Source: Acutalibacteraceae bacterium (GTDB lineage Bacteria; Bacillota; Clostridia; Oscillospirales; Acutalibacteraceae). From it: a stretch of 64,000 bases of DNA. The stretch's first letter is position 1; every line of letters begins with the position of its first letter. The translations under genes were made by a program, and so were the position numbers. The notes beneath the pieces are model-generated. The model was not told the DNA's origin. It saw nothing but the letters and a program-made list of their open reading frames with translations, and made no database searches. The DNA lies in NCBI GenBank assembly GCA_045533655.1, contig JAZSIE010000002.1, positions 35,069 to 99,068 on the forward strand. Reading direction: 5' to 3'. Of this stretch, positions 1 through 49,909 are shown one piece after another.

Positions 1-10
1 CGATTACTGC

Positions 11-1590: not shown

Positions 1591-1642
1591 GTTCTATCAT
1601 TTAAAGTTTCCGTAAACTTAAAATGATGGAACTTTTTATTTT
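1591..1642 (+). terminator. Rho-independent terminator after gdhA (hairpin family copy 1)
   Basis: gttctatcatttaaagttt / aaacttaaaatgatggaac stem followed by tttttatttt. Confidence 0.8.
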
Positions 1643-23364: not shown

Positions 23365-23416
23365 AACTCTATCATTTAAGTTTACAAAAAACTTTAAATG
23401 ATAGAGTTTGTTTTTT
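23365..23416. terminator. Bidirectional terminator (hairpin family copy 2)
   Basis: aactctatcatttaagttt / aaactttaaatgatagagtt stem, A-run upstream and T-run downstream. Confidence 0.8.
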
Positions 23417-44331: not shown

Positions 44332-45318
44332 ATGGATTTAAAAGGAAGAGATTTTTTAAAGCTTCTTGATTATAAAAGTGAAGAAATTGAATATCTTATA
44401 GACCTTGCGGCAGAACTTAAAGAAAAGAAGAAAAAGGGCATTCCTCACGAAGAATTAAAAGGTAAAAATATTGCTCTTATATTTGAAAAAACAAGCACAA
44501 GAACACGTTGTAGTTTTGAAGTTGCGGCAAGAGATTTAGGAATGGGCGTTACTTACCTTGACCCATCTGCTTCACAAATAGGCAGAAAAGAGAGTATTGC
44601 CGACACAGCAAGAGTTCTTTCTTCAATTTATGACGGTATAGAATATCGTGGTTATGGGCAAGAAGTAGTTGAAGAATTAGCAAGATTTTCAAGAGTTCCG
44701 GTCTGGAATGGTCTTACTAACGAATTTCACCCAACACAGATTTTAGCTGATTTTCTTACAATTAAAGAAAAATTTGGTAAGTTAAAGGGTATAAACTTCG
44801 TTTATTTAGGCGATGCAAGATACAATATGGGCAACTCTTTAATGGTAGGTTGTGCAAAAATGGGTATGAACTTCGTTGCTTGTGCACCTAAAAAATATTT
44901 CCCTGACACAGACCTTGTAGGCGAATGTAAAAAAATTGCAAAGCAGACTGGTGCTACTCTTACTTTCTCAGAAGACCCTGTTTCTGCAGTTAAAAATGCC
45001 GACGTTGTTTACACGGACGTGTGGGTTTCAATGGGTGAGCCAGAACTTGTGTGGGCAGAAAGAATTAACGATTTGTCAGATTATCAGGTGAATAAAGAGT
45101 TGATGTCACACACAGGTAAAGATACAATTTTTATGCATTGTCTCCCATCTTACCACGATAAAAAGACAGAAATTGGTAAAAAAATCTGCGACAAATTCAA
45201 CAGAACTGCAGTTGAAGTTACCGACGACGTTTTTGAAAGCGAACAGTCAGTTGTTTTTGAAGAAGCAGAAAACAGAATGCACACAATTAAGGCGGTTATG
45301 CTTGCGACGCTTAAATAG
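44332..45318 (+). CDS. argF: ornithine carbamoyltransferase
   Basis: 328 aa. [13 protein letters not shown] and HCLP motifs. Confidence 0.95.
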
Positions 45319-45373
45319 TGTGGCTAGTATGGCTAGTTGGCTAGTTGATAGTATAATTAGTGATTAGTAAGTC
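45318..45373. repeat. Left array: six approximately 8-bp-periodic (C/A/T)TAGT units (GGCTAGT core)
   Basis: gtgtGGCTAGTatGGCTAGTtGGCTAGTtGATAGTataatTAGTgatTAGTaagtc. TAG at 45325, 45334, 45342, 45349, 45358 and 45365. Begins within the argF stop codon. Confidence 0.85.
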
Positions 45374-45468
45374 CGTTGTAGTGGAACTTTGTTCTCTCAC
45401 AAATGAATTCCGAATTCAAAATTCAGAATTACGGCTAAATTATAATTATTTATCAATAAAACAACAAA

Positions 45469-45517
45469 ATTCTATCATTTTTAGTTTGTGATAACTTTAA
45501 ATGATAGAATTTTTTTA
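45469..45517 (+). terminator. Rho-independent terminator (hairpin family copy 3) between the two CTAGT arrays
   Basis: attctatcatttttagtt / aactttaaatgatagaat stem followed by TTTTTTT. Confidence 0.8.
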
Positions 45518-45525
45518 TTGTTATA

Positions 45526-45590
45526 ACACTAGCCAACTAGCCAACTATCCAACTAGCCACACTAGCCATACTGACTTACTGATTCACTAA
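45526..45590. repeat. Right array: eight approximately 8-bp-periodic ACT(A/G) units (ACTAGCC core), the complement of the left array
   Basis: acACTAGCCaACTAGCCaACTATCCaACTAGCCacACTAGCCatACTGacttACTGattcACTAa. Confidence 0.85.
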
Positions 45591-45620
45591 AAATTCACAA
45601 ATTATATTTCTGTAAAAACA

Positions 45621-45649
45621 TTGACTTTGCACACAAAAATTAGTACAAT
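45621..45649 (+). promoter_or_regulatory. Candidate sigma-A promoter of the giant surface-protein gene
   Basis: TTGACT (45621-45626), 17-nt spacer, TACAAT (45644-45649). Confidence 0.5.
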
Positions 45650-45730
45650 TATAATGTATGAAAATTTGCATTTTTAAGGCGAATTTATGAATATAAAATA
45701 TAATTGAAATTTTAAAAAGGAAGTGTTTTG

Positions 45731-48700
45731 ATGAAAAGAGTTTTAAGTTTATTTTTATCATGCATATTTGTTTTAGGTGTGTGTTTCTCAACACCTGTTA
45801 TTGCGAGCGCAGAAGAGCCCGCAACGTTCGTAGTTGACGATAACGTATTTCAATACGTTGAAGGTAGTCAGGAGTGCTCTGTTAAAAAGTGGAATGGTTC
45901 TGACGTTGCTCTTACATTAACTACTGTGCAGGATGAAAATGAGATAACTTATACAATAACAGGTATATTATCAGGTGCATTTAGTGGATGTACAGATCTC
46001 GAAACTTTAACAATAAAATCAAATATTGAGACAATTGAGGCAGGAGCTTTCGCAGGTTGTACAGCTCTTACAGAGTTTATAGAGGATGCAAATTCACTTA
46101 ATAGCGATTTTGAAGTTGATGCGGGTGTTTTGTTTAATGAGAACCAAACCACTCTGATAGCATACCCAGCGGCTAAAGAGGGTACAGAATATACTATTCC
46201 TTTAGGTGTAACAGAAATTGCCAAGGGTGCTTTTGCGGGTTGTGCAAATTTAAAATATATATTTACAGAAAAAACATCTTTTGAAGAAAACGAAAAAATA
46301 ACTATTGGTGAAAATAATGATATTTTTTCACAACCTGGTGTGTATCACGAAGGTTTGGCAGCACATAATTTTTCTGGTGAAGTGGGTCCTAAAAAATGCA
46401 CAGCATGTTGTTTGCTTGAAAATGAAACCGATAAACAACAACACACATGGGAAAACGGTGTATGCACAGAATGTGGATTAGTTTGTGAACATGCATGGGA
46501 AAATGGTGAATGTACAAAATGTGGATTAGTTTGTGAACATGCATGGGAAAACGGTGAATGTACAAAATGTGAATTAGTTTGTGAACATGCATGGGAAAAC
46601 GGAACATGCACAACTTGTAATACAGTATGTGAACATGCGTGGGAAAATGGAACATGTACAAAGTGTGAATTAGTTTGTGAACATACATGGGAAAACGGAA
46701 CATGCACAACTTGTAATACAGTATGTGAACATGCGTGGGAAAATGGAACATGTACAAAGTGTGAATTAGTTTGTGAACATATATGGGAAAACGGAGTATG
46801 TACAACTTGTAATACAGTATGTGAACATGCGTGGGAAAATGGAACATGTACAAAGTGTGAATTAGTTTGTGAACATATATGGGAAAACGGAACATGCACA
46901 ACTTGTAATACAGTATGTGAACATGCGTGGGAAAATGGAACATGTACAAAGTGTGAATTAGTTTGTGAACACACATGGGAAAACGGAACATGCACAACTT
47001 GTAATACAGTATGTGAACATGCGTGGGAAAATGGAACATGTACAAAGTGTGAATTAGTTTGTGAACATATATGGGAAAACGGAACATGTACAAAGTGTGA
47101 ATTAGTTTGTGAACATGCGTGGGAAAATGGAACATGTACAAAGTGTGAATTAGTTTGTGAACATATATGGGAAAACGGAACATGCACAACTTGTAATACA
47201 GTATGTGAACATGCGTGGGAAAATGGTGAGTGCACTGTTTGTTATACAACGTGTGCTCATAACGACAAATCAAATAAAATAGAAAAATTACCAACTTGTG
47301 TAGATACTGGTGTATTACTTACAAAATGTAATGAATGTGATTTTGAAGAAAGAAGCACTATTGATATAGATTCTGATGCTCACAAAATGTCAGATTGGAC
47401 TGAGACTGTAAAAGCAACTTGTTCTTCAACGGGTGTAGAAGAAAGAACTTGTGAAAACGGAGATTGTAAACATACAGAAACACGAGAAACAGGAAAAAAT
47501 CCTAATAACCACACTTATGGTGACTGGGTTGTAACTGCTGCTACTTGTGTTGCAGATGGCGAAAAAGTAAAAACTTGTACAAATACAGAATGTAAGCACG
47601 AGTTAAAAGAAACAATAGCTAAAGACCCAACGGCTCACAAAATGGCTACTGAGTGGGAAGTAACAAAAGCGCCAACTTGTGTAGAAACCGGTTTGCAAGT
47701 AAAAACCTGTTTAAATGTTGGTTGTGACCACGAAATAAAAGAAGTTATTGCTATTAAAGCAGATGCCCATAACTTAGGTGGTTGGGTAGTTACAAAAGCT
47801 GCAAAATGTACTGTTGCTGGTGAAATAACAAGATTCTGTAAAAACGGAAATTGTGAATATAAGGTAACAGATTCGCTTGACCCGGATGGCAAAACTCACG
47901 ATTTCGCAAAAGATTTCACAGTAATTGAAGCAACTTGTATTTCGACTGGTTCGAAATTTAGAGCTTGCGAAAACGAAGGTTGTAAAGAAGTTACAGAGAA
48001 AACAGAAATCGCAATCGACCCTGATGCTCACAAAAACGTTGAGACTATAAATGTAAAACAACCTACTTGTGAAGAAAAAGGTTACACTGGCGACGAATTC
48101 TGTAATGACTGTAAAAAGACGTTCGACCCTGGTATTGAAGTTGATGCATTAGGTCATACTGAAAGTGACTGGATTGTAGATAAAGAAGCTACATTTACAG
48201 AAGAAGGTGCAAGACACATTTCTTGTACTGTTTGTAAAAAAGAACTTAAAAAAGAAGTAATTGAAAAACTTACACTCGCAACACCTTCTCCAAAAGCATA
48301 CAACAAAACAAGCAGTATCAAAGTTAAGTGGACAGACGTAGATAACGCTTTGACTTATAACGTTTATCGTTCAGATTTTGTGAATAACGATTGGACTAAG
48401 TGGAAAAAAATTGGTTCTGTAAAAAAAGGTGTCGGCGAATTTACAGATAAAAATGTTGTAGCTGGTAAACAATATAAATATACAGTGAAGGCTTATAACG
48501 GTGAATTTGTAAGCGGCAAAAAGACTTCTAACAAAATCATATTTATTAAACCGGTAAAACCAGCACTTACAATTACTACAACAGGTCTAATTCTTAAGTG
48601 GGATACTGTATTAGGTGCAGATAAATACGTTGTTTACCGTTCACAACTTGTTGATGAAAAATGGTCTGACTGGAAGAAAGTTTCGACAGTTAAAGACGGT

Positions 48701-49909
48701 AAAACTTCTGCTGTTGATACCTCTGTGGAAAGTGGTGCAACTTATAAATACTCGGTACGTGCATATATTGGCAGTTCTTACACAGAGCGAAAAGCATCAG
48801 GTACTATTATATATCTTGCTCAACCAACTATAAAACTTTCTAATACTGCAACAGGTATTAAAGGTAGCTGGGAAACAGTGAATGGTGCAACTGGTTACGT
48901 AATTACACGTGCTGAATACAACGAGAATACCAAGAAATTTGGCACTGCTATAAAATTAGGTACAGCGGGCGCAACAGCAAAGTCATTTACAGATAAAACT
49001 GCAAAAGAGGGCGTTAAATATAAATATACTTTAACTGCTATAAATGGTACGTATTCAAGCGTTGTTTCATCTGGCAAGGTTATAAGACGACTTGGAGAGC
49101 CAGTTGTAACAATTGAAAATGCAAATGGTTCAATCAAGGGTAAATGGACTCAAGTAAAAGGTGCTACTAATTATACAGTTTATCGTTCTGAGTTAGTTGA
49201 TGGTAAGTGGACTTCTTGGAAGAATCTTGGTACAACTGGTGCAACAGCAAAATCTTTTACAGATAAAACTGTTAAATCGGGTGTTAACTATAAATACACG
49301 GTTAAAGCAATAAACGGTGGCTCAAAGAGTAGCGTTGGCGCTTCAAATAAAGTCGTTTACCTTTCTCGCCCAGAACCAACGGCTGTTAACTCAATTTATG
49401 GTGTAAAGGTTACCTGGGGTGCTATAACCGGTGCTGAAAGTTATATTGTTTATCGTAAGGCTTACGTTAATAAACAATGGACTGAATGGCAACAAATCGG
49501 AACATCAGAGAGCAATTCTTACATTGACTCAACAGCAGTAAGTGGTGTTAAATATAAATACACAATTCACGCTGTAAATGGTGGCAGTTTAAGTGCCCGT
49601 AAAGCAACGTCAACTTTACTTCACGTTGCAACACCAACCGCAACTGTAAAAGCAACCGAAAAAGCAATTAACGTAAGTTGGGGTCAGGTTGGCGGAGCTA
49701 CAAAATACGTAGTTTATCGTCAGGTGCTTGGCGCTGATGGTAAATGGTCAGCATCAACTAAAATAGCATCATTAAAAGGTGTGCTTGAGTTCACTGATAC
49801 CACAGCAGAAGCTGGTAACACTTACAGATATAAGGTTGTAGCTTATAATGGTAAGGTGAAAAGTTCATCTAATGCAACAGATGGCATTTTACTTCCAACC
49901 GCTCAATAA
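45731..49909 (+). CDS. giant secreted protein: signal peptide, BspA-type LRRs, 17 x 16-aa Cys/His mini-repeats, 8 Cys/His modules, 6 FN3-like repeats
   Basis: ATG at 45731 after a GGAAGTG RBS. Signal peptide ...VIASAEE. LRR_5-like GAFSGCTDLETLTI / GAFAGCTALTEFI / GAFAGCANLKYI. For the repeats see separate entries. No LPXTG, TM or dockerin at the C-terminus. Confidence 0.9.
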   Translation: MKRVLSLFLSCIFVLGVCFSTPVIASAEEPATFVVDDNVFQYVEGSQECSVKKWNGSDVALTLTTVQDENEITYTITGILSGAFSGCTDLETLTIKSNIETIEAGAFAGCTALTEFIEDANSLNSDFEVDAGVLFNENQTTLIAYPAAKEGTEYTIPLGVTEIAKGAFAGCANLKYIFTEKTSFEENEKITIGENNDIFSQPGVYHEGLAAHNFSGEVGPKKCTACCLLENETDKQQHTWENGVCTECGLVCEHAWENGECTKCGLVCEHAWENGECTKCELVCEHAWENGTCTTCNTVCEHAWENGTCTKCELVCEHTWENGTCTTCNTVCEHAWENGTCTKCELVCEHIWENGVCTTCNTVCEHAWENGTCTKCELVCEHIWENGTCTTCNTVCEHAWENGTCTKCELVCEHTWENGTCTTCNTVCEHAWENGTCTKCELVCEHIWENGTCTKCELVCEHAWENGTCTKCELVCEHIWENGTCTTCNTVCEHAWENGECTVCYTTCAHNDKSNKIEKLPTCVDTGVLLTKCNECDFEERSTIDIDSDAHKMSDWTETVKATCSSTGVEERTCENGDCKHTETRETGKNPNNHTYGDWVVTAATCVADGEKVKTCTNTECKHELKETIAKDPTAHKMATEWEVTKAPTCVETGLQVKTCLNVGCDHEIKEVIAIKADAHNLGGWVVTKAAKCTVAGEITRFCKNGNCEYKVTDSLDPDGKTHDFAKDFTVIEATCISTGSKFRACENEGCKEVTEKTEIAIDPDAHKNVETINVKQPTCEEKGYTGDEFCNDCKKTFDPGIEVDALGHTESDWIVDKEATFTEEGARHISCTVCKKELKKEVIEKLTLATPSPKAYNKTSSIKVKWTDVDNALTYNVYRSDFVNNDWTKWKKIGSVKKGVGEFTDKNVVAGKQYKYTVKAYNGEFVSGKKTSNKIIFIKPVKPALTITTTGLILKWDTVLGADKYVVYRSQLVDEKWSDWKKVSTVKDGKTSAVDTSVESGATYKYSVRAYIGSSYTERKASGTIIYLAQPTIKLSNTATGIKGSWETVNGATGYVITRAEYNENTKKFGTAIKLGTAGATAKSFTDKTAKEGVKYKYTLTAINGTYSSVVSSGKVIRRLGEPVVTIENANGSIKGKWTQVKGATNYTVYRSELVDGKWTSWKNLGTTGATAKSFTDKTVKSGVNYKYTVKAINGGSKSSVGASNKVVYLSRPEPTAVNSIYGVKVTWGAITGAESYIVYRKAYVNKQWTEWQQIGTSESNSYIDSTAVSGVKYKYTIHAVNGGSLSARKATSTLLHVATPTATVKATEKAINVSWGQVGGATKYVVYRQVLGADGKWSASTKIASLKGVLEFTDTTAEAGNTYRYKVVAYNGKVKSSSNATDGILLPTAQ
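46433..47248 (+). repeat. In-frame tandem array of 17 x 48 bp (96-bp higher-order period)
   Basis: Units VCEH[A/T/I]WENG[T/E/V]CT[K/T/V]C[E/N/G/Y][L/T], with near-identical DNA between units. Confidence 0.95.
47249..48270 (+). repeat. Eight divergent modules of about 40-47 aa: H-x4-5-W-x-V-x3-x-T-C-x3-G-x5-C-x2-4-C
   Basis: For example AHKMSDWTETVKATCSSTGVEERTCENGDCKH, NHTYGDWVVTAATCVADGEKVKTCTNTECKH and GHTESDWIVDKEATFTEEGARHISCTVCKK. Confidence 0.8.
48271..49906 (+). repeat. Six FN3-like repeats of about 85-90 aa
   Basis: Recurrent W..V.GA..Y.VYRS....W..W...G.....FTD..V..G..YKYTVKA.NG pattern. Confidence 0.8.

What the first reader, a model, noticed from the sequence alone, without database searches (positions are those of the whole stretch)
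45318..45590. Opposed arrays of 8-bp-periodic CTAGT / ACTAG repeats bracket a terminator between argF and the giant surface-protein gene
The plus strand carries six units with a TAGT core at about 8-bp spacing, starting within the argF stop codon (GGCTAGT x3, then GATAGT, TTAGT, TTAGT; 45318..45373). About 150 bp downstream the complementary motif appears eight times at 8-9 bp spacing (ACTAGCC x4-5, then ACTG/ACTA; 45526..45590). The two arrays enclose a terminator hairpin (45469..45517) and an EcoRI-rich segment (gaattccgaattcaaaattcagaatt). Three things are odd. (i) I saw no other CTAG clustering while reading the rest of the window, yet it is concentrated here. (ii) The period is 8, not a multiple of 3, and CTAG is palindromic, so the arrays place TAG, TGA and TAA stops in many frames on both strands. 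The segment tTAGtTGAtagtaTAAtTAGTGAtTAGTAAg covers all three plus-strand frames. (iii) The sub-modules are individually inverted but not in mirror order: the GGCTAGT block and the TAGTGAwTnAGTAAGTC block appear as A-B ... rcA-rcB. This is therefore not a simple hairpin or classical terminal inverted repeat. Possible readings are a tandem-operator array (8-bp-spaced CTAG half-sites resemble E. coli TrpR-type operators), a MITE-like element remnant, or a transcription/translation insulator between a biosynthetic operon and a highly expressed surface gene.
Basis: partly seen in the sequence, partly recalled or inferred. Interest (0 to 1): 0.62.

Follow-up and report, generated by a model that had tools for sequence, protein, structure and literature searches.

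The report
Inverted repeat arrays flanking argF terminator
The gap between the arginine operon and the next gene is filled by a fast-changing palindromic repeat, made of two mirror-image runs of an 8-9-base word around a terminator hairpin; it belongs to a widespread, functionally unexplained class of bacterial repeats and is not a regulator docking site.

Summary
Window 45316-45373 carries GGCTAGT-type units every 7-9 bases. Window 45526-45589 carries the complementary ACTAGCC units. A 31-nt inverted repeat (90%) links the two arrays. All seven CTAG sites of the 64-kb window lie in these arrays (61-144 expected).

Comparison with 17 orthologous argF-to-surface-gene spacers from related gut and rumen Clostridia settles the interpretation.
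- Every allele has the same layout: stop codon, array, AT-rich hairpin with a T-run, complementary array, conserved promoter.
- The repeated word differs between alleles: GGCTAGT, TCAGT, TGCAAGT, AGGAAnT, TTAGGAA.
- Strains whose flanks are 98-100% identical carry unrelated modules.

A word-specific operator (TrpR-like) is therefore excluded, and stop-codon richness is not conserved. The element belongs to the "inverted heptamer/octamer array" repeat class known from Xanthomonas, Geobacter and cyanobacterial STRRs, and resembles REP/BIME elements. It is built around a dispersed terminator hairpin. It evolves by unit slippage and by cassette-like replacement.

The A-B...rcA-rcB order reflects two word layers with separate histories. 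The function of the arms is unproven. G:U pairs show no strand bias, which argues against RNA-level selection.

The parts
45316..45318 (+). argF stop codon TAG, which is also the first letters of the first repeat unit
   Evidence: ORF 44332-45318 carries the OTCace domains. In all 13 alleles the array starts 0-3 nt after the stop codon.
45319..45352 (+). Left array A: GTGGCTAGT, ATGGCTAGT, TGGCTAGT, then the degenerate unit TGATAGT
   Evidence: Copy number differs in other assemblies: L144 has fewer units, and a 15-nt deletion at 45334 is seen in run X3.
45353..45373 (+). Left module B (ATAATTAGTGATTAGTAAGTC): an older TCAGT/TAAGT-type word layer
   Evidence: It is homologous to the left arm of alleles L147/L149 (TAATCAGTGTTCAGTAAGTC) and of the conspecific L145. 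The cross-score of window against L147 is 26-28, against about 15 for other word types.
45374..45404 (+). Spacer with no repeat structure and no counterpart on the right side
   Evidence: It is unpaired, or only locally paired, in the fold.
45405..45432 (+). Heptad array GAATTCC GAATTCA AAATTCA GAATTAC (the 'EcoRI-rich segment')
   Evidence: TRF gives period 7 and 3.7 copies. The same word family (AATTCCG/ATTACGC) forms arrays in the related MAGs L131 and L140.
45429..45459 (+). Decayed copy of a dispersed sub-module (..TTACGGCT.ATTATAATTA..) that leads into the hairpin
   Evidence: Contigs from other loci join here with other upstream sequence, such as ...GGAAGCC (loose ends). L053, L071 and L095 carry GGAAGCCTTACGGCTTGATTATAATT.
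45460..45522 (.). AT-rich hairpin of a dispersed family (CTATCATTT...AAATGATAG) with a U7 tail: the intrinsic terminator of the arg operon. It is also hairpin plus UUUUGUUGUU on the minus strand.
   Evidence: The fold is -19 kcal/mol, z = -6 on the + strand and z = -7.7 on the - strand. Two further copies lie in the window at 1591 and 23365. Contig depth over the hairpin bins is about 4-17x that of neighbouring bins in metagenomes. The consensus terminator scan misses it because it has fewer than 3 G-C pairs.
45523..45569 (+). Right array rcA: the junction TATAACA, then ACTAGCC x4 plus ACTATCC, at 8-9 nt spacing
   Evidence: An 8-nt deletion at 45528 is seen in runs X2 and X3. The same junction and array occur at 9 or more other metagenome loci and in L056, L057 and L066.
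45570..45589 (+). Right module rcB (ACTGACTTACTGATTCACTA): the complement of B, lying outside rcA
   Evidence: It is homologous to the right arm of L147/L149. The composite ACTAGCC...ATATGACTTACCGACCCACTGA also occurs in L205.
45621..45655 (+). Conserved promoter of the surface-protein gene (TTGACT, 17 nt, TACAAT, with an overlapping TATAAT). It marks the right limit of the variable module.
   Evidence: It is conserved in all relatives while the module is not.
45731..49909 (+). Large secreted LRR/Fn3 surface protein gene (ATG at 45731; the ORF is listed from TTG at 45728)
   Evidence: Orthologues of 1276-1984 aa follow argF in the relatives.

Best explanation
**What it is.** The segment 45316-45589 is one allele of a hypervariable, palindromic, non-coding module. 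It belongs to the 'inverted short-tandem-array' repeat class: heptamer/octamer-array hairpins that are REP/BIME-like in position and behaviour.

**Layout.**
- The core is an AT-rich hairpin of a dispersed family with a T-run. It serves as the intrinsic, roughly bidirectional terminator of the argGHCJBDF operon.
- The two arms are arrays of 7-9-nt words.
- The G/T-rich version of the word lies 5' of the hairpin and the C/A-rich version lies 3'. The arms can therefore zip into a stem of about 40 bp that encloses the terminator.
- The module fills the whole unconstrained gap from the stop codon to about 10-35 nt before the -35 box of the next gene.

**How it changes.** The words are not read by a sequence-specific regulator. 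The arrays grow and shrink by slippage. Arms and cores are also exchanged as cassettes between family members or strains.

**This window's allele.** It carries two word layers: GGCTAGT and an older TCAGT/TAAGT layer. The two layers were laid down separately on the two sides, which gives the A-B...rcA-rcB order.

**Shown versus inferred.**
- Shown: the anatomy, the class membership, the allelic turnover and the word-level complementarity of the arms.
- Inferred: that the hairpin terminates transcription; that slippage and ectopic or templated conversion are the mechanisms; and that any role of the arms is structural (clamping or insulating) rather than informational.
For: 1. **The anatomy and its non-random nature** rest.
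2. **Thirteen distinct alleles of the same spacer**, from 17 related contigs (ArgF 95-98% identical), all have array-hairpin-complementary array. There are at least 5 word types. In every allele the MFE fold pairs the left array with the right array.
3. **Arms match their own word type.** The left arm against the reverse complement of the right arm scores 30-55 within a word type. Across word types it scores 11-20, and shuffles give 13-17 +/- 2.5.
4. **Copy number varies within a word type**: L155/L159/L160, L144, and deletions of 15 nt and 8 nt in metagenome contigs.
5. **Modules are replaced like cassettes.**
   - L155 and L156 are 98-100% identical for 1.5 kb on each side, right up to stop+5 and the -35 box, yet carry unrelated modules.
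   - L158 has the same arms with a swapped core.
   - The window and L145 are 99.2% identical in argF and diverge from stop+2.
6. **The hairpin family and the hairpin-TATAACA-(CTAGCC)n junction recur** at other loci and in other genomes.
7. **Polarity is consistent.** The G-rich arm is 5' and the C-rich arm 3' in most of about 21 CTATCATT-family hairpins judged by eye from the 29 rows of the table, with one clear reversal (L095); the window's own copy is negative on both sides. This matches the convergent G-rich arrays of Xanthomonas (PMC4692102).
8. **The related MAGs use a shared vocabulary of 7-9-nt words**.
9. **The class is described in the literature:**
   - 70-75 convergent GGGAATC pairs per Xanthomonas genome, mostly just after the upstream ORF and variable between species;
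   - paired tandem-repeat sites in Geobacter (PMC2700814);
   - TAACTGA repeats (PMC4679880).
Against: - Arm complementarity is not universal in the family. L188 has a CTAGCC array on one side only, and L178 and L205 have different words on the two sides.
- Two alleles (L160, L162) have arms too short to score above shuffles.
- No 3'-end data exist. RNA runs gave only fragmentary contigs, so termination at the hairpin is not demonstrated.
- The simple consensus scan does not call the hairpin a terminator.
- All relatives are metagenome contigs or MAGs, so some mosaic alleles could be assembly chimeras across the repeated hairpin.
- Contigs often break at 45484-45490.
Confidence: 0.6

Rival explanations
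1. The module is a mobile, REPIN- or MITE-like cassette. Array-hairpin-array units would be moved or exchanged by a dedicated trans-acting enzyme that recognises the hairpin or arms as single-stranded DNA, such as a RAYT-like transposase or a system linked to PF05635 four-helix-bundle genes. They would home to the gap just after stop codons and replace one another there.
For: - Replacement has sharp limits at stop+2..5 and at the promoter, in backgrounds that are 98-100% identical.
- L158 shows nested or swapped cores.
- The same junction and the same composite arms occur at unrelated loci.
- The aminotransferase locus carries the module in L056/L057 but plain, unrelated terminators in 80-86% relatives.
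- Homologous ORFs (49% identical to each other) flanked by CTAG-word arrays occur in a Victivallales and a Prevotella MAG; the Victivallales one hits PF05635 below the gathering score.
Against: - There is no target-site duplication at 45317/45572.
- No two copies are near-identical; copies are mosaics.
- No transposase, RAYT or PF05635 gene is present among the small ORFs of the window.
- No relative of the PF05635-like ORF was found in 1.6 Mb of fetched loci, apart from the two non-Clostridia loci.
- No empty site was seen at the argF locus in any of the 13 alleles.
Confidence: 0.2
2. The module is an RNA-level fail-safe insulator. In transcripts that read through the hairpin, the right array pairs with the left array into a duplex of about 40 bp. 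RNase III cleaves this duplex, or it blocks downstream events, and so uncouples the arg operon from the surface-protein gene.
For: - The full-length fold is very stable (-91 kcal/mol, z = -10.5), and every allele folds the same way.
- Complementarity is kept while the word changes.
Against: - G:U pairs in the long-range stems are equally rare on both strands, 27 of 407 against 34 of 408. The symmetry therefore looks DNA-level.
- One-sided arrays exist in the family.
- The right arm lies beyond the U-tract, so it is absent from terminated transcripts.
- No RNA ends could be mapped.
Confidence: 0.15
3. The arrays are a tandem operator or centromere-like site. A TrpR-, MetJ- or omega/RHH-type protein would bind the 8-bp-spaced CTAG units cooperatively, regulating argF or the surface gene.
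For: An 8-bp spacing of ACTAG half-sites resembles tandem TrpR binding, and 7-8-bp unit arrays are bound by MetJ and omega (own knowledge). CTAG is otherwise absent from the window.
Against: - The word is replaced by unrelated words in conspecific and sister strains at the same position.
- The arrays do not overlap the promoter.
- No such regulator is present among the small ORFs of the window.
Confidence: 0.03
4. The module is a phase-variation device. Changes in array length would switch expression of the giant surface protein.
For: A hypervariable repeat lies directly upstream of a variable surface-protein gene. Simple-sequence-repeat switching is common for surface genes (PMC12721329, abstract).
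Against: - The arrays lie upstream of the -35 box, not between the promoter elements or in the coding or 5'-UTR region.
- The same kind of module follows an aminotransferase gene facing a convergent gene.
- No strand-switch joints were reported in contigs.
Confidence: 0.05

Closest known systems
Convergent GGGAATC heptamer arrays of Xanthomonas (Rehm et al. 2015, PMC4692102) and paired tandem-repeat sites of Geobacter metallireducens (Aklujkar et al. 2009, PMC2700814)
   Same: - Both are tandem 7-9-nt units arranged as two arrays on opposite strands, with the G-rich arm first.
- Both are intergenic and lie close behind the upstream ORF.
- Length and sequence vary between close relatives.
- Function is unknown.
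   Different: - This case is in a low-GC Clostridia lineage and has no G-quadruplex potential.
- The units are 8-9 nt and carry the otherwise avoided CTAG.
- The arms enclose a conserved, dispersed AT-rich terminator hairpin.
- Many different words are used within one species at one locus.
Cyanobacterial STRR heptanucleotide repeats (Mazel et al. 1990, own knowledge; mentioned in PMC4692102) and TAACTGA repeats (MacGregor 2015, PMC4679880)
   Same: Both are short tandem words of the NNNCAGT / TCAGTTA type in intergenic DNA, found in several phyla and unexplained. The TCAGT/TAAGT layer here is nearly the same word.
   Different: Those repeats are mostly direct arrays, often just upstream of start codons. 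Here the arrays are paired, inverted and sit just after a stop codon.
REP / BIME / REPIN elements of Proteobacteria
   Same: Both are dispersed extragenic palindromes at gene 3' ends with a mosaic modular build. They act as, or lie beside, terminators and mRNA 3' stabilisers (own knowledge).
   Different: No conserved GTAG-type tag and no RAYT gene was seen. The arms are tandem arrays rather than a single palindrome. Membership is not shown.
MITEs (e.g. Correia, RUP, BOX)
   Same: The element has 31-nt terminal inverted repeats, measures about 257 bp, is non-coding and has relatives at other loci.
   Different: There is no target-site duplication, there are no near-identical copies, and the boundaries coincide with functional limits (stop codon and promoter).
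Tandem operators of TrpR, MetJ (metbox) and omega (heptads)
   Same: They share the 7-8-bp unit period, and ACTAG resembles the TrpR half-site.
   Different: The word is not conserved among strains, the arrays do not overlap a promoter, and no regulator was found. This works neither as nor like an operator.
ORF-bearing 23S rRNA intervening sequences / PF05635 cassettes
   Same: Both have inverted array arms around a core. CTAG-word arrays flank homologous ORFs (one hitting PF05635 below the gathering score) in L116 and L067.
   Different: There is no ORF inside this element, it is not in rRNA, and no PF05635 gene was seen in the Clostridia loci searched.

Membership tests
Inverted short-tandem-array (heptamer/octamer) intergenic repeats | Tandem units of 7-9 nt, at least 3 copies per array | tested here: met
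   3.4 copies on the left (period 9) and 5 copies on the right (period 8).
Inverted short-tandem-array (heptamer/octamer) intergenic repeats | Two arrays on opposite strands in convergent orientation (G-rich arm first), able to pair | tested here: met
Inverted short-tandem-array (heptamer/octamer) intergenic repeats | Intergenic, starting close behind the upstream ORF | tested here: met
   The first unit overlaps the stop codon. The same holds in all 13 alleles.
Inverted short-tandem-array (heptamer/octamer) intergenic repeats | Length and sequence variation between close relatives | tested here: met
Inverted short-tandem-array (heptamer/octamer) intergenic repeats | Many copies dispersed in the same genome | tested here: inconclusive
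A close relative, RGIG6294, has a GGCTAGT pair at another locus (L056). Metagenome contigs show further loci.
Intrinsic terminator | Stable stem-loop directly followed by a U-tract at the end of an operon | tested here: met
   The fold is -19 kcal/mol, z = -6, followed by U7. The simple consensus scan fails only on G-C content.
Intrinsic terminator | Transcript 3' ends at the U-tract | not testable with these tools
   Only Logan contigs of metatranscriptomes were available, and they are fragmentary.
MITE | Terminal inverted repeats | tested here: met
   31 nt, 90% complementary.
MITE | Target-site duplication flanking the inverted repeats | tested here: not met
   The flanks are CTTAAAT and GACTTAC, with no direct repeat.
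MITE | Several near-identical full-length copies, and empty sites in relatives | tested here: not met
   Copies are mosaics that share the junction and the words only. No empty argF site was found in 13 alleles.
REP/REPIN | Cognate RAYT (Y1 transposase) gene in the genome | not testable with these tools
None is present among the small ORFs of the window.
TrpR/MetJ/omega-type tandem operator | Recognition word conserved wherever the regulator is conserved | tested here: not met
   Conspecific strains (argF 99.2% nt) and sister strains carry other words.
TrpR/MetJ/omega-type tandem operator | Sites overlap or abut the regulated promoter | tested here: not met
   The arrays end at 45589 and the -35 box is at 45621. 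The left array lies behind the terminator on the argF side.
PF05635 / IVS-type cassette | Four-helix-bundle ORF between the inverted arms | tested here: not met
   No ORF with a family hit lies inside 45316-45589.
Invertible promoter (inverton) | A promoter between the inverted repeats, with both orientations present in reads | tested here: not met
   The promoter lies outside the inverted repeats. No strand-change joints were reported (contigs only).

The most novel reading that the evidence does not exclude
The array-hairpin-array modules may be exchangeable cassettes handled by a dedicated, still unidentified machinery. That machinery would recognise the hairpin or arms as single-stranded DNA and would rewrite the gap between a stop codon and the next promoter.

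Three observations would fit this reading:
- clean module swaps in flanks that are 98-100% identical;
- the fixed polarity of the G/T-rich arm;
- the recurrence of the same few words (NAGT, GGAAnT, TCAG) from Clostridia to Xanthomonas, Geobacter and cyanobacteria.

The PF05635-like genes found between CTAG-word arrays in two other rumen phyla would then be candidates for the trans-acting part.
Probability: 0.15. Interest if true: 0.8.

Novelty: new member of a known kind. Interest (0 to 1): 0.42.

Why it matters
Short 7-9-nt tandem arrays are among the commonest unexplained features of bacterial intergenic DNA.

This locus offers a natural allelic series. One gene junction, with near-identical flanks, carries at least five different words and swapped cores, while the two arms always match each other. 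That separates what is constant from what is free.
- Constant: position, hairpin, arm complementarity and arm polarity.
- Free: the word itself and the copy number.

The series rules out word-specific regulators for this class. It points experiments at structure or at the generating mechanism.

There is also a practical consequence. These modules break short-read assemblies. In this lineage they also hold nearly all occurrences of an otherwise avoided restriction-type tetranucleotide.

Tried and rejected
- **Viral contigs:** 24 hits to GGCTAGTTGGCTAGT were single chance matches with no arrays, so there is no phage link.
- **Genome-contig scan:** No unbiased count, and no control for whether CTAG words are over-used in arrays, was therefore possible.
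- **Exact-protein look-up of ArgF:** it gave only 1.3-kb contigs that end in the repeat.
- **Metatranscriptome contigs:** too fragmentary to map 3' ends.
- **Rfam:** nothing relevant.
- **Pfam scan of 56 small ORFs through an alignment id:** it showed only the top 25 of 87 families and so could not exclude rare families. It was replaced by direct scans of the window ORFs and by a jackhmmer search with the L116 ORF over all loci.
- **Stop-codon 'translation insulator':** rejected. Eight stops against 3.5 expected in the window allele, but at or below expectation in most other alleles.
- **Inverton:** rejected, because the promoter lies outside the repeats.
- **ARG-box reading of TGAATTCCGAATTCA:** the half-sites are spaced one base too far apart and the segment is a heptad array, so this was not pursued.
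Full report
**1. Checking the observation**

- GGCTAGT occurs seven times in the 64-kb window: three on the + strand (45322, 45331, 45339) and four on the - strand (45528, 45536, 45552, 45561). It occurs nowhere else.
- TRF reports three arrays: period 9 at 45316-45345, period 7 at 45405-45430 (GAATTCA) and period 8 at 45528-45568 (ACTAGCCA x5).
- The longest inverted repeat is 45317-45347 / 45542-45572, 31 nt and 90% complementary.
- CTAG occurs seven times in the window, and all seven are inside the arrays. Dinucleotide shuffles expect 143.5 +/- 11 and a Markov model expects about 61.
- The genome also strongly avoids GATC, CGCG and GGCC. CTAG avoidance is therefore one of several palindrome avoidances. 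The point of interest is the concentration of CTAG here.
- As RNA, 45305-45610 folds at -91 kcal/mol (z = -10.5), with the two arrays paired around the inner hairpin.

**2. Context**

Upstream lie argJ, argB, argD and argF. Downstream is a 1393-aa secreted LRR/Fn3 protein on the same strand, followed by a DUF1846 gene.

The inner hairpin (45460-45522) folds at -19 kcal/mol (z = -6) and is followed by seven U. On the minus strand it folds equally well and is followed by UUUUGUUGUU. The consensus terminator scan misses it only because the stem has fewer than three G-C pairs.

Two other hairpins in the window, at 1591 and 23365, share the stem sequence CTATCATTT...AAATGATAG.

In gut metagenome contigs the hairpin stretch has about 4-17 times the depth of neighbouring bins, and contigs break there. 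The hairpin is therefore a dispersed repeat.

The promoter of the surface gene (TTGACT, 17 nt, TACAAT/TATAAT; 45621-45655) lies outside the arrays.

**3. The decisive comparison: the same spacer in relatives**

ArgF homologues of 95-98% identity are common in gut and rumen metagenomes and in MAGs named Clostridia, Ruminococcaceae or Acutalibacteraceae. I fetched 17 contigs with the same gene order, giving 13 distinct spacer sequences. I also fetched two short contigs that encode an ArgF identical to the window's.

Every allele has the same layout. The stop codon comes first, and within 0-3 nt an array of a short word begins. An AT-rich hairpin of the same family with a T-run follows. Then comes an array of the complementary word, and then the conserved promoter.

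The word differs between alleles:

| Allele(s) | Left word / right word |
|---|---|
| window, L144 | GGCTAGT / ACTAGCC |
| L147, L149 | TCAGT / ACTGA |
| L148, L150, L156 | TGCAAGT / ACTTGCA |
| L155, L157, L159-L164 | AGGAAnT / AnTTCCT |
| L146 | TTAGGAA / TTCCTAA |
| L154 | mixed words |
| L158 | nested composite |

L145, whose argF is 99.2% identical to the window at the nucleotide level, continues after TAGTG with GGTCAGT GAGTCAGT instead of GGCTAGT units.

Further results from the alleles:
- In all 13 alleles the MFE fold pairs the left array with the right array.
- A matrix of left arm against the reverse complement of the right arm has a block structure. Within a word type the scores are 30-55. 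Between word types they are 11-20. Shuffles give 13-17 +/- 2.5. Two alleles with very short arms (L160, L162) and L146 are not significant on their own.

The two arms therefore co-vary at the level of the word.

**4.

*Operator.* A regulator that reads CTAG half-sites cannot be the explanation. Strains with practically the same proteome have unrelated words at the same place. The window also encodes no TrpR-, MetJ- or RHH-type protein among its small ORFs.

*Stops in all frames.* The window's left arm has 8 stops in its first 45 nt, against 3.5 expected. Most other alleles are at or below expectation, at 1-3 against about 4. This is a side effect of the TAG-containing word and not a conserved property.

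*Non-mirror order.* B (45353-45373) and rcB (45570-89) are homologous to the TCAGT-type arms of L147/L149 and of L145. They form an older word layer.
- On the left, the GGCTAGT units lie between the stop codon and B.
- On the right, they lie between the hairpin and rcB.
- The right-hand composite, hairpin-TATAACA-(ACTAGCC)n-ACTGACTTAC.., recurs in a metagenome locus (L205).
- Its exact mirror, TAAGTCAGT..-(GGCTAGT)n-hairpin, occurs in MAG SIG595 (L062/L140).

The right half is thus a common composite. The left half has the two layers in the other order, so the arms have separate histories.

**5. Dynamics**

*Copy number.* It varies within a word type: L155, L159 and L160 differ by units; L144 has fewer GGCTAGT units; and metagenome contigs show deletions of 15 nt at 45334 and 8 nt at 45528.

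*Whole-module replacement.*
- L155 and L156 encode the same ArgF. They are 98-100% identical in every 150-nt window for 1.5 kb on both sides, up to five bases after the stop codon and up to the -35 box.
- Their modules are nevertheless unrelated: AGGAAnT with one hairpin, against TGCAAGT with another.
- The other carrier of the TGCAAGT module (L148) is only about 90% identical in the flanks. The module did not arrive with flanking DNA from such a donor.
- L158, in the same background, keeps the AGGAAnT arms but has a different core that contains a TGCAAGT array.

These patterns fit cassette-like exchange or ectopic conversion among dispersed family members better than gradual divergence.

*Caveat.* All of these are metagenome contigs, and the hairpin is a repeat. 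Chimeric assembly cannot be fully excluded, although several independent assemblies give the same alleles (L155 = L157; L147 = L149; L160 = L163 = L164).

**6. Is the pairing selected in RNA?**

In the long-range stems of the 13 alleles, G:U pairs number 27 of 407 on the + strand and 34 of 408 on the - strand. No strand is favoured, so the complementarity looks like DNA-level symmetry.

In the wider family, pairing is frequent but not obligatory. Among nine metagenome loci with hairpin-TATAACA-(CTAGCNA)n, one has no left array (L188) and two have other words on the left (L178, L205).

Polarity is consistent. In most of about 21 CTATCATT-family hairpins, judged by eye from the 29 rows of the table, the 65 nt upstream are G-rich relative to C and the 65 nt downstream are C-rich. 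There is one clear reversal (L095), and the window's own copy is negative on both sides. Read from either strand, then, a G/T-rich array precedes the hairpin. The same convergent orientation of G-rich arrays is reported for Xanthomonas.

**7. The family beyond this lineage**

These loci come from many phyla and span 28-76% GC. In most of them the CTAG sites of the 8-kb locus are concentrated in one array.

In the rumen and gut Clostridia MAGs, the arrays sit in intergenic patchworks with other 7-nt words and the same hairpin family. L056/L057 show the simple form after an aminotransferase gene: array x4, hairpin, inverted array x4 or x1. In relatives at 80-86% protein identity, that gene is followed by plain, unrelated terminators.

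I cannot say whether CTAG words are over-represented among arrays, because no control pattern could be scanned.

Following earlier notes of this scan, I checked one lead. In L116 (a Victivallales MAG), a 214-aa ORF lies between CTAGCCGAC and GGCTAGTGC arrays. It hits PF05635 at E = 9e-6 and 26 bits, below the gathering score. A 49%-identical ORF in a Prevotella MAG (L067) is also flanked by CTAG-word arrays. No relative of this ORF occurs in the window or in any other fetched locus.

**8. What is known**

- Heptameric repeats are over-represented among bacterial simple sequence repeats. Xanthomonas has about 190 GGGAATC arrays, including 70-75 convergent pairs. They are mostly intergenic, on average 28 nt behind the upstream ORF, and vary between species. 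Their function is unknown (PMC4692102).
- Geobacter metallireducens has classes of paired tandem-repeat sites on opposite strands, interpreted without tests as regulator sites (PMC2700814).
- TAACTGA repeats occur in Beggiatoaceae, cyanobacteria and Bacteroidetes (PMC4679880).
- Cyanobacterial STRRs and REP/BIME elements are further relatives in kind (own knowledge).
- This scan has noted the same design in some 300 genomes, including CTAG-octamer arrays in CTAG-poor gut Bacteroidales. These are unverified AI notes.

**9. Verdict**

The finding is real. It is a new member of a known but unexplained repeat class.

Most likely it is a REP/BIME-like palindromic module built on the operon's terminator hairpin. 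It would evolve by slippage and cassette-like exchange, with no word-specific reader (confidence 0.6).

A dedicated mobilising system (0.2) and an RNA-level insulator role for the arms (0.15) remain open. The operator reading is rejected.

The copy number in the window's own genome, and the presence of candidate mobilising genes, therefore remain untested.

Noticed in passing
window 1-64000: Four palindromic tetranucleotides are strongly avoided: GATC (8 sites against about 113 expected), CTAG (7 against about 61), CGCG (8 against about 42) and GGCC (12 against about 54). CATG is at about one third of expectation. This suggests several 4-base restriction-modification systems in the lineage.
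   Followed up: partly
window 1591-1642, 23365-23416, 45460-45522: Three terminator hairpins share the stem CTATCATTT..AAATGATAG. Only the third is flanked by arrays. The family is highly repeated in gut metagenome and metatranscriptome contigs.
   Followed up: partly
L116 4012-4656 (Victivallales MAG, goat) and L067 5364-6032 (Prevotella MAG, buffalo): Homologous 214-223-aa ORFs (49% identical) are each flanked by inverted CTAG-word arrays, in two different phyla. The L116 ORF hits PF05635 below the gathering score.
   Followed up: partly
L012, L019, L023 (IMG/VR phage contigs, 29-33% GC): TGGCTAGT x2 is followed within 40 nt by ACTATCCA x2 or ACTAGCCA. This is a compact set of direct and inverted copies of the same word and could be a phage operator or origin. 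The neighbouring genes were not examined.
   Followed up: no
L155-L161, about 60-70 nt after the -35 box of the surface gene: Several relatives carry a lone CTAG (ATTATTCTAGGATAAAAAGG) in the 5' leader just before the ribosome-binding site of the surface-protein gene. The window and other alleles have TTTAAAT or CAAAAAT there.
   Followed up: no
window 45731-49909 and orthologues in L146-L164: The surface protein downstream of the module varies greatly in length (1276-1984 aa) and domain content among strains with 95-98% identical ArgF.
   Followed up: no
L068 4238-4403 (Haloimpatiens lingqiaonensis chromosome) and L071 3424-3615 (Clostridia MAG): These are very long pure arrays: (GGGCTAGT) about 22 times and (GGCTAGTN) about 23 times. 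CTAG-word arrays can therefore expand far beyond the 3-5 units seen in the window.
   Followed up: no
window 45677-45648 (minus strand): A promoter-like site, TTAAAA, 18 nt, TATAAT (10 of 12), points back toward the module from within the leader of the surface gene. If it is active, the module would also terminate this antisense transcript.
   Followed up: no
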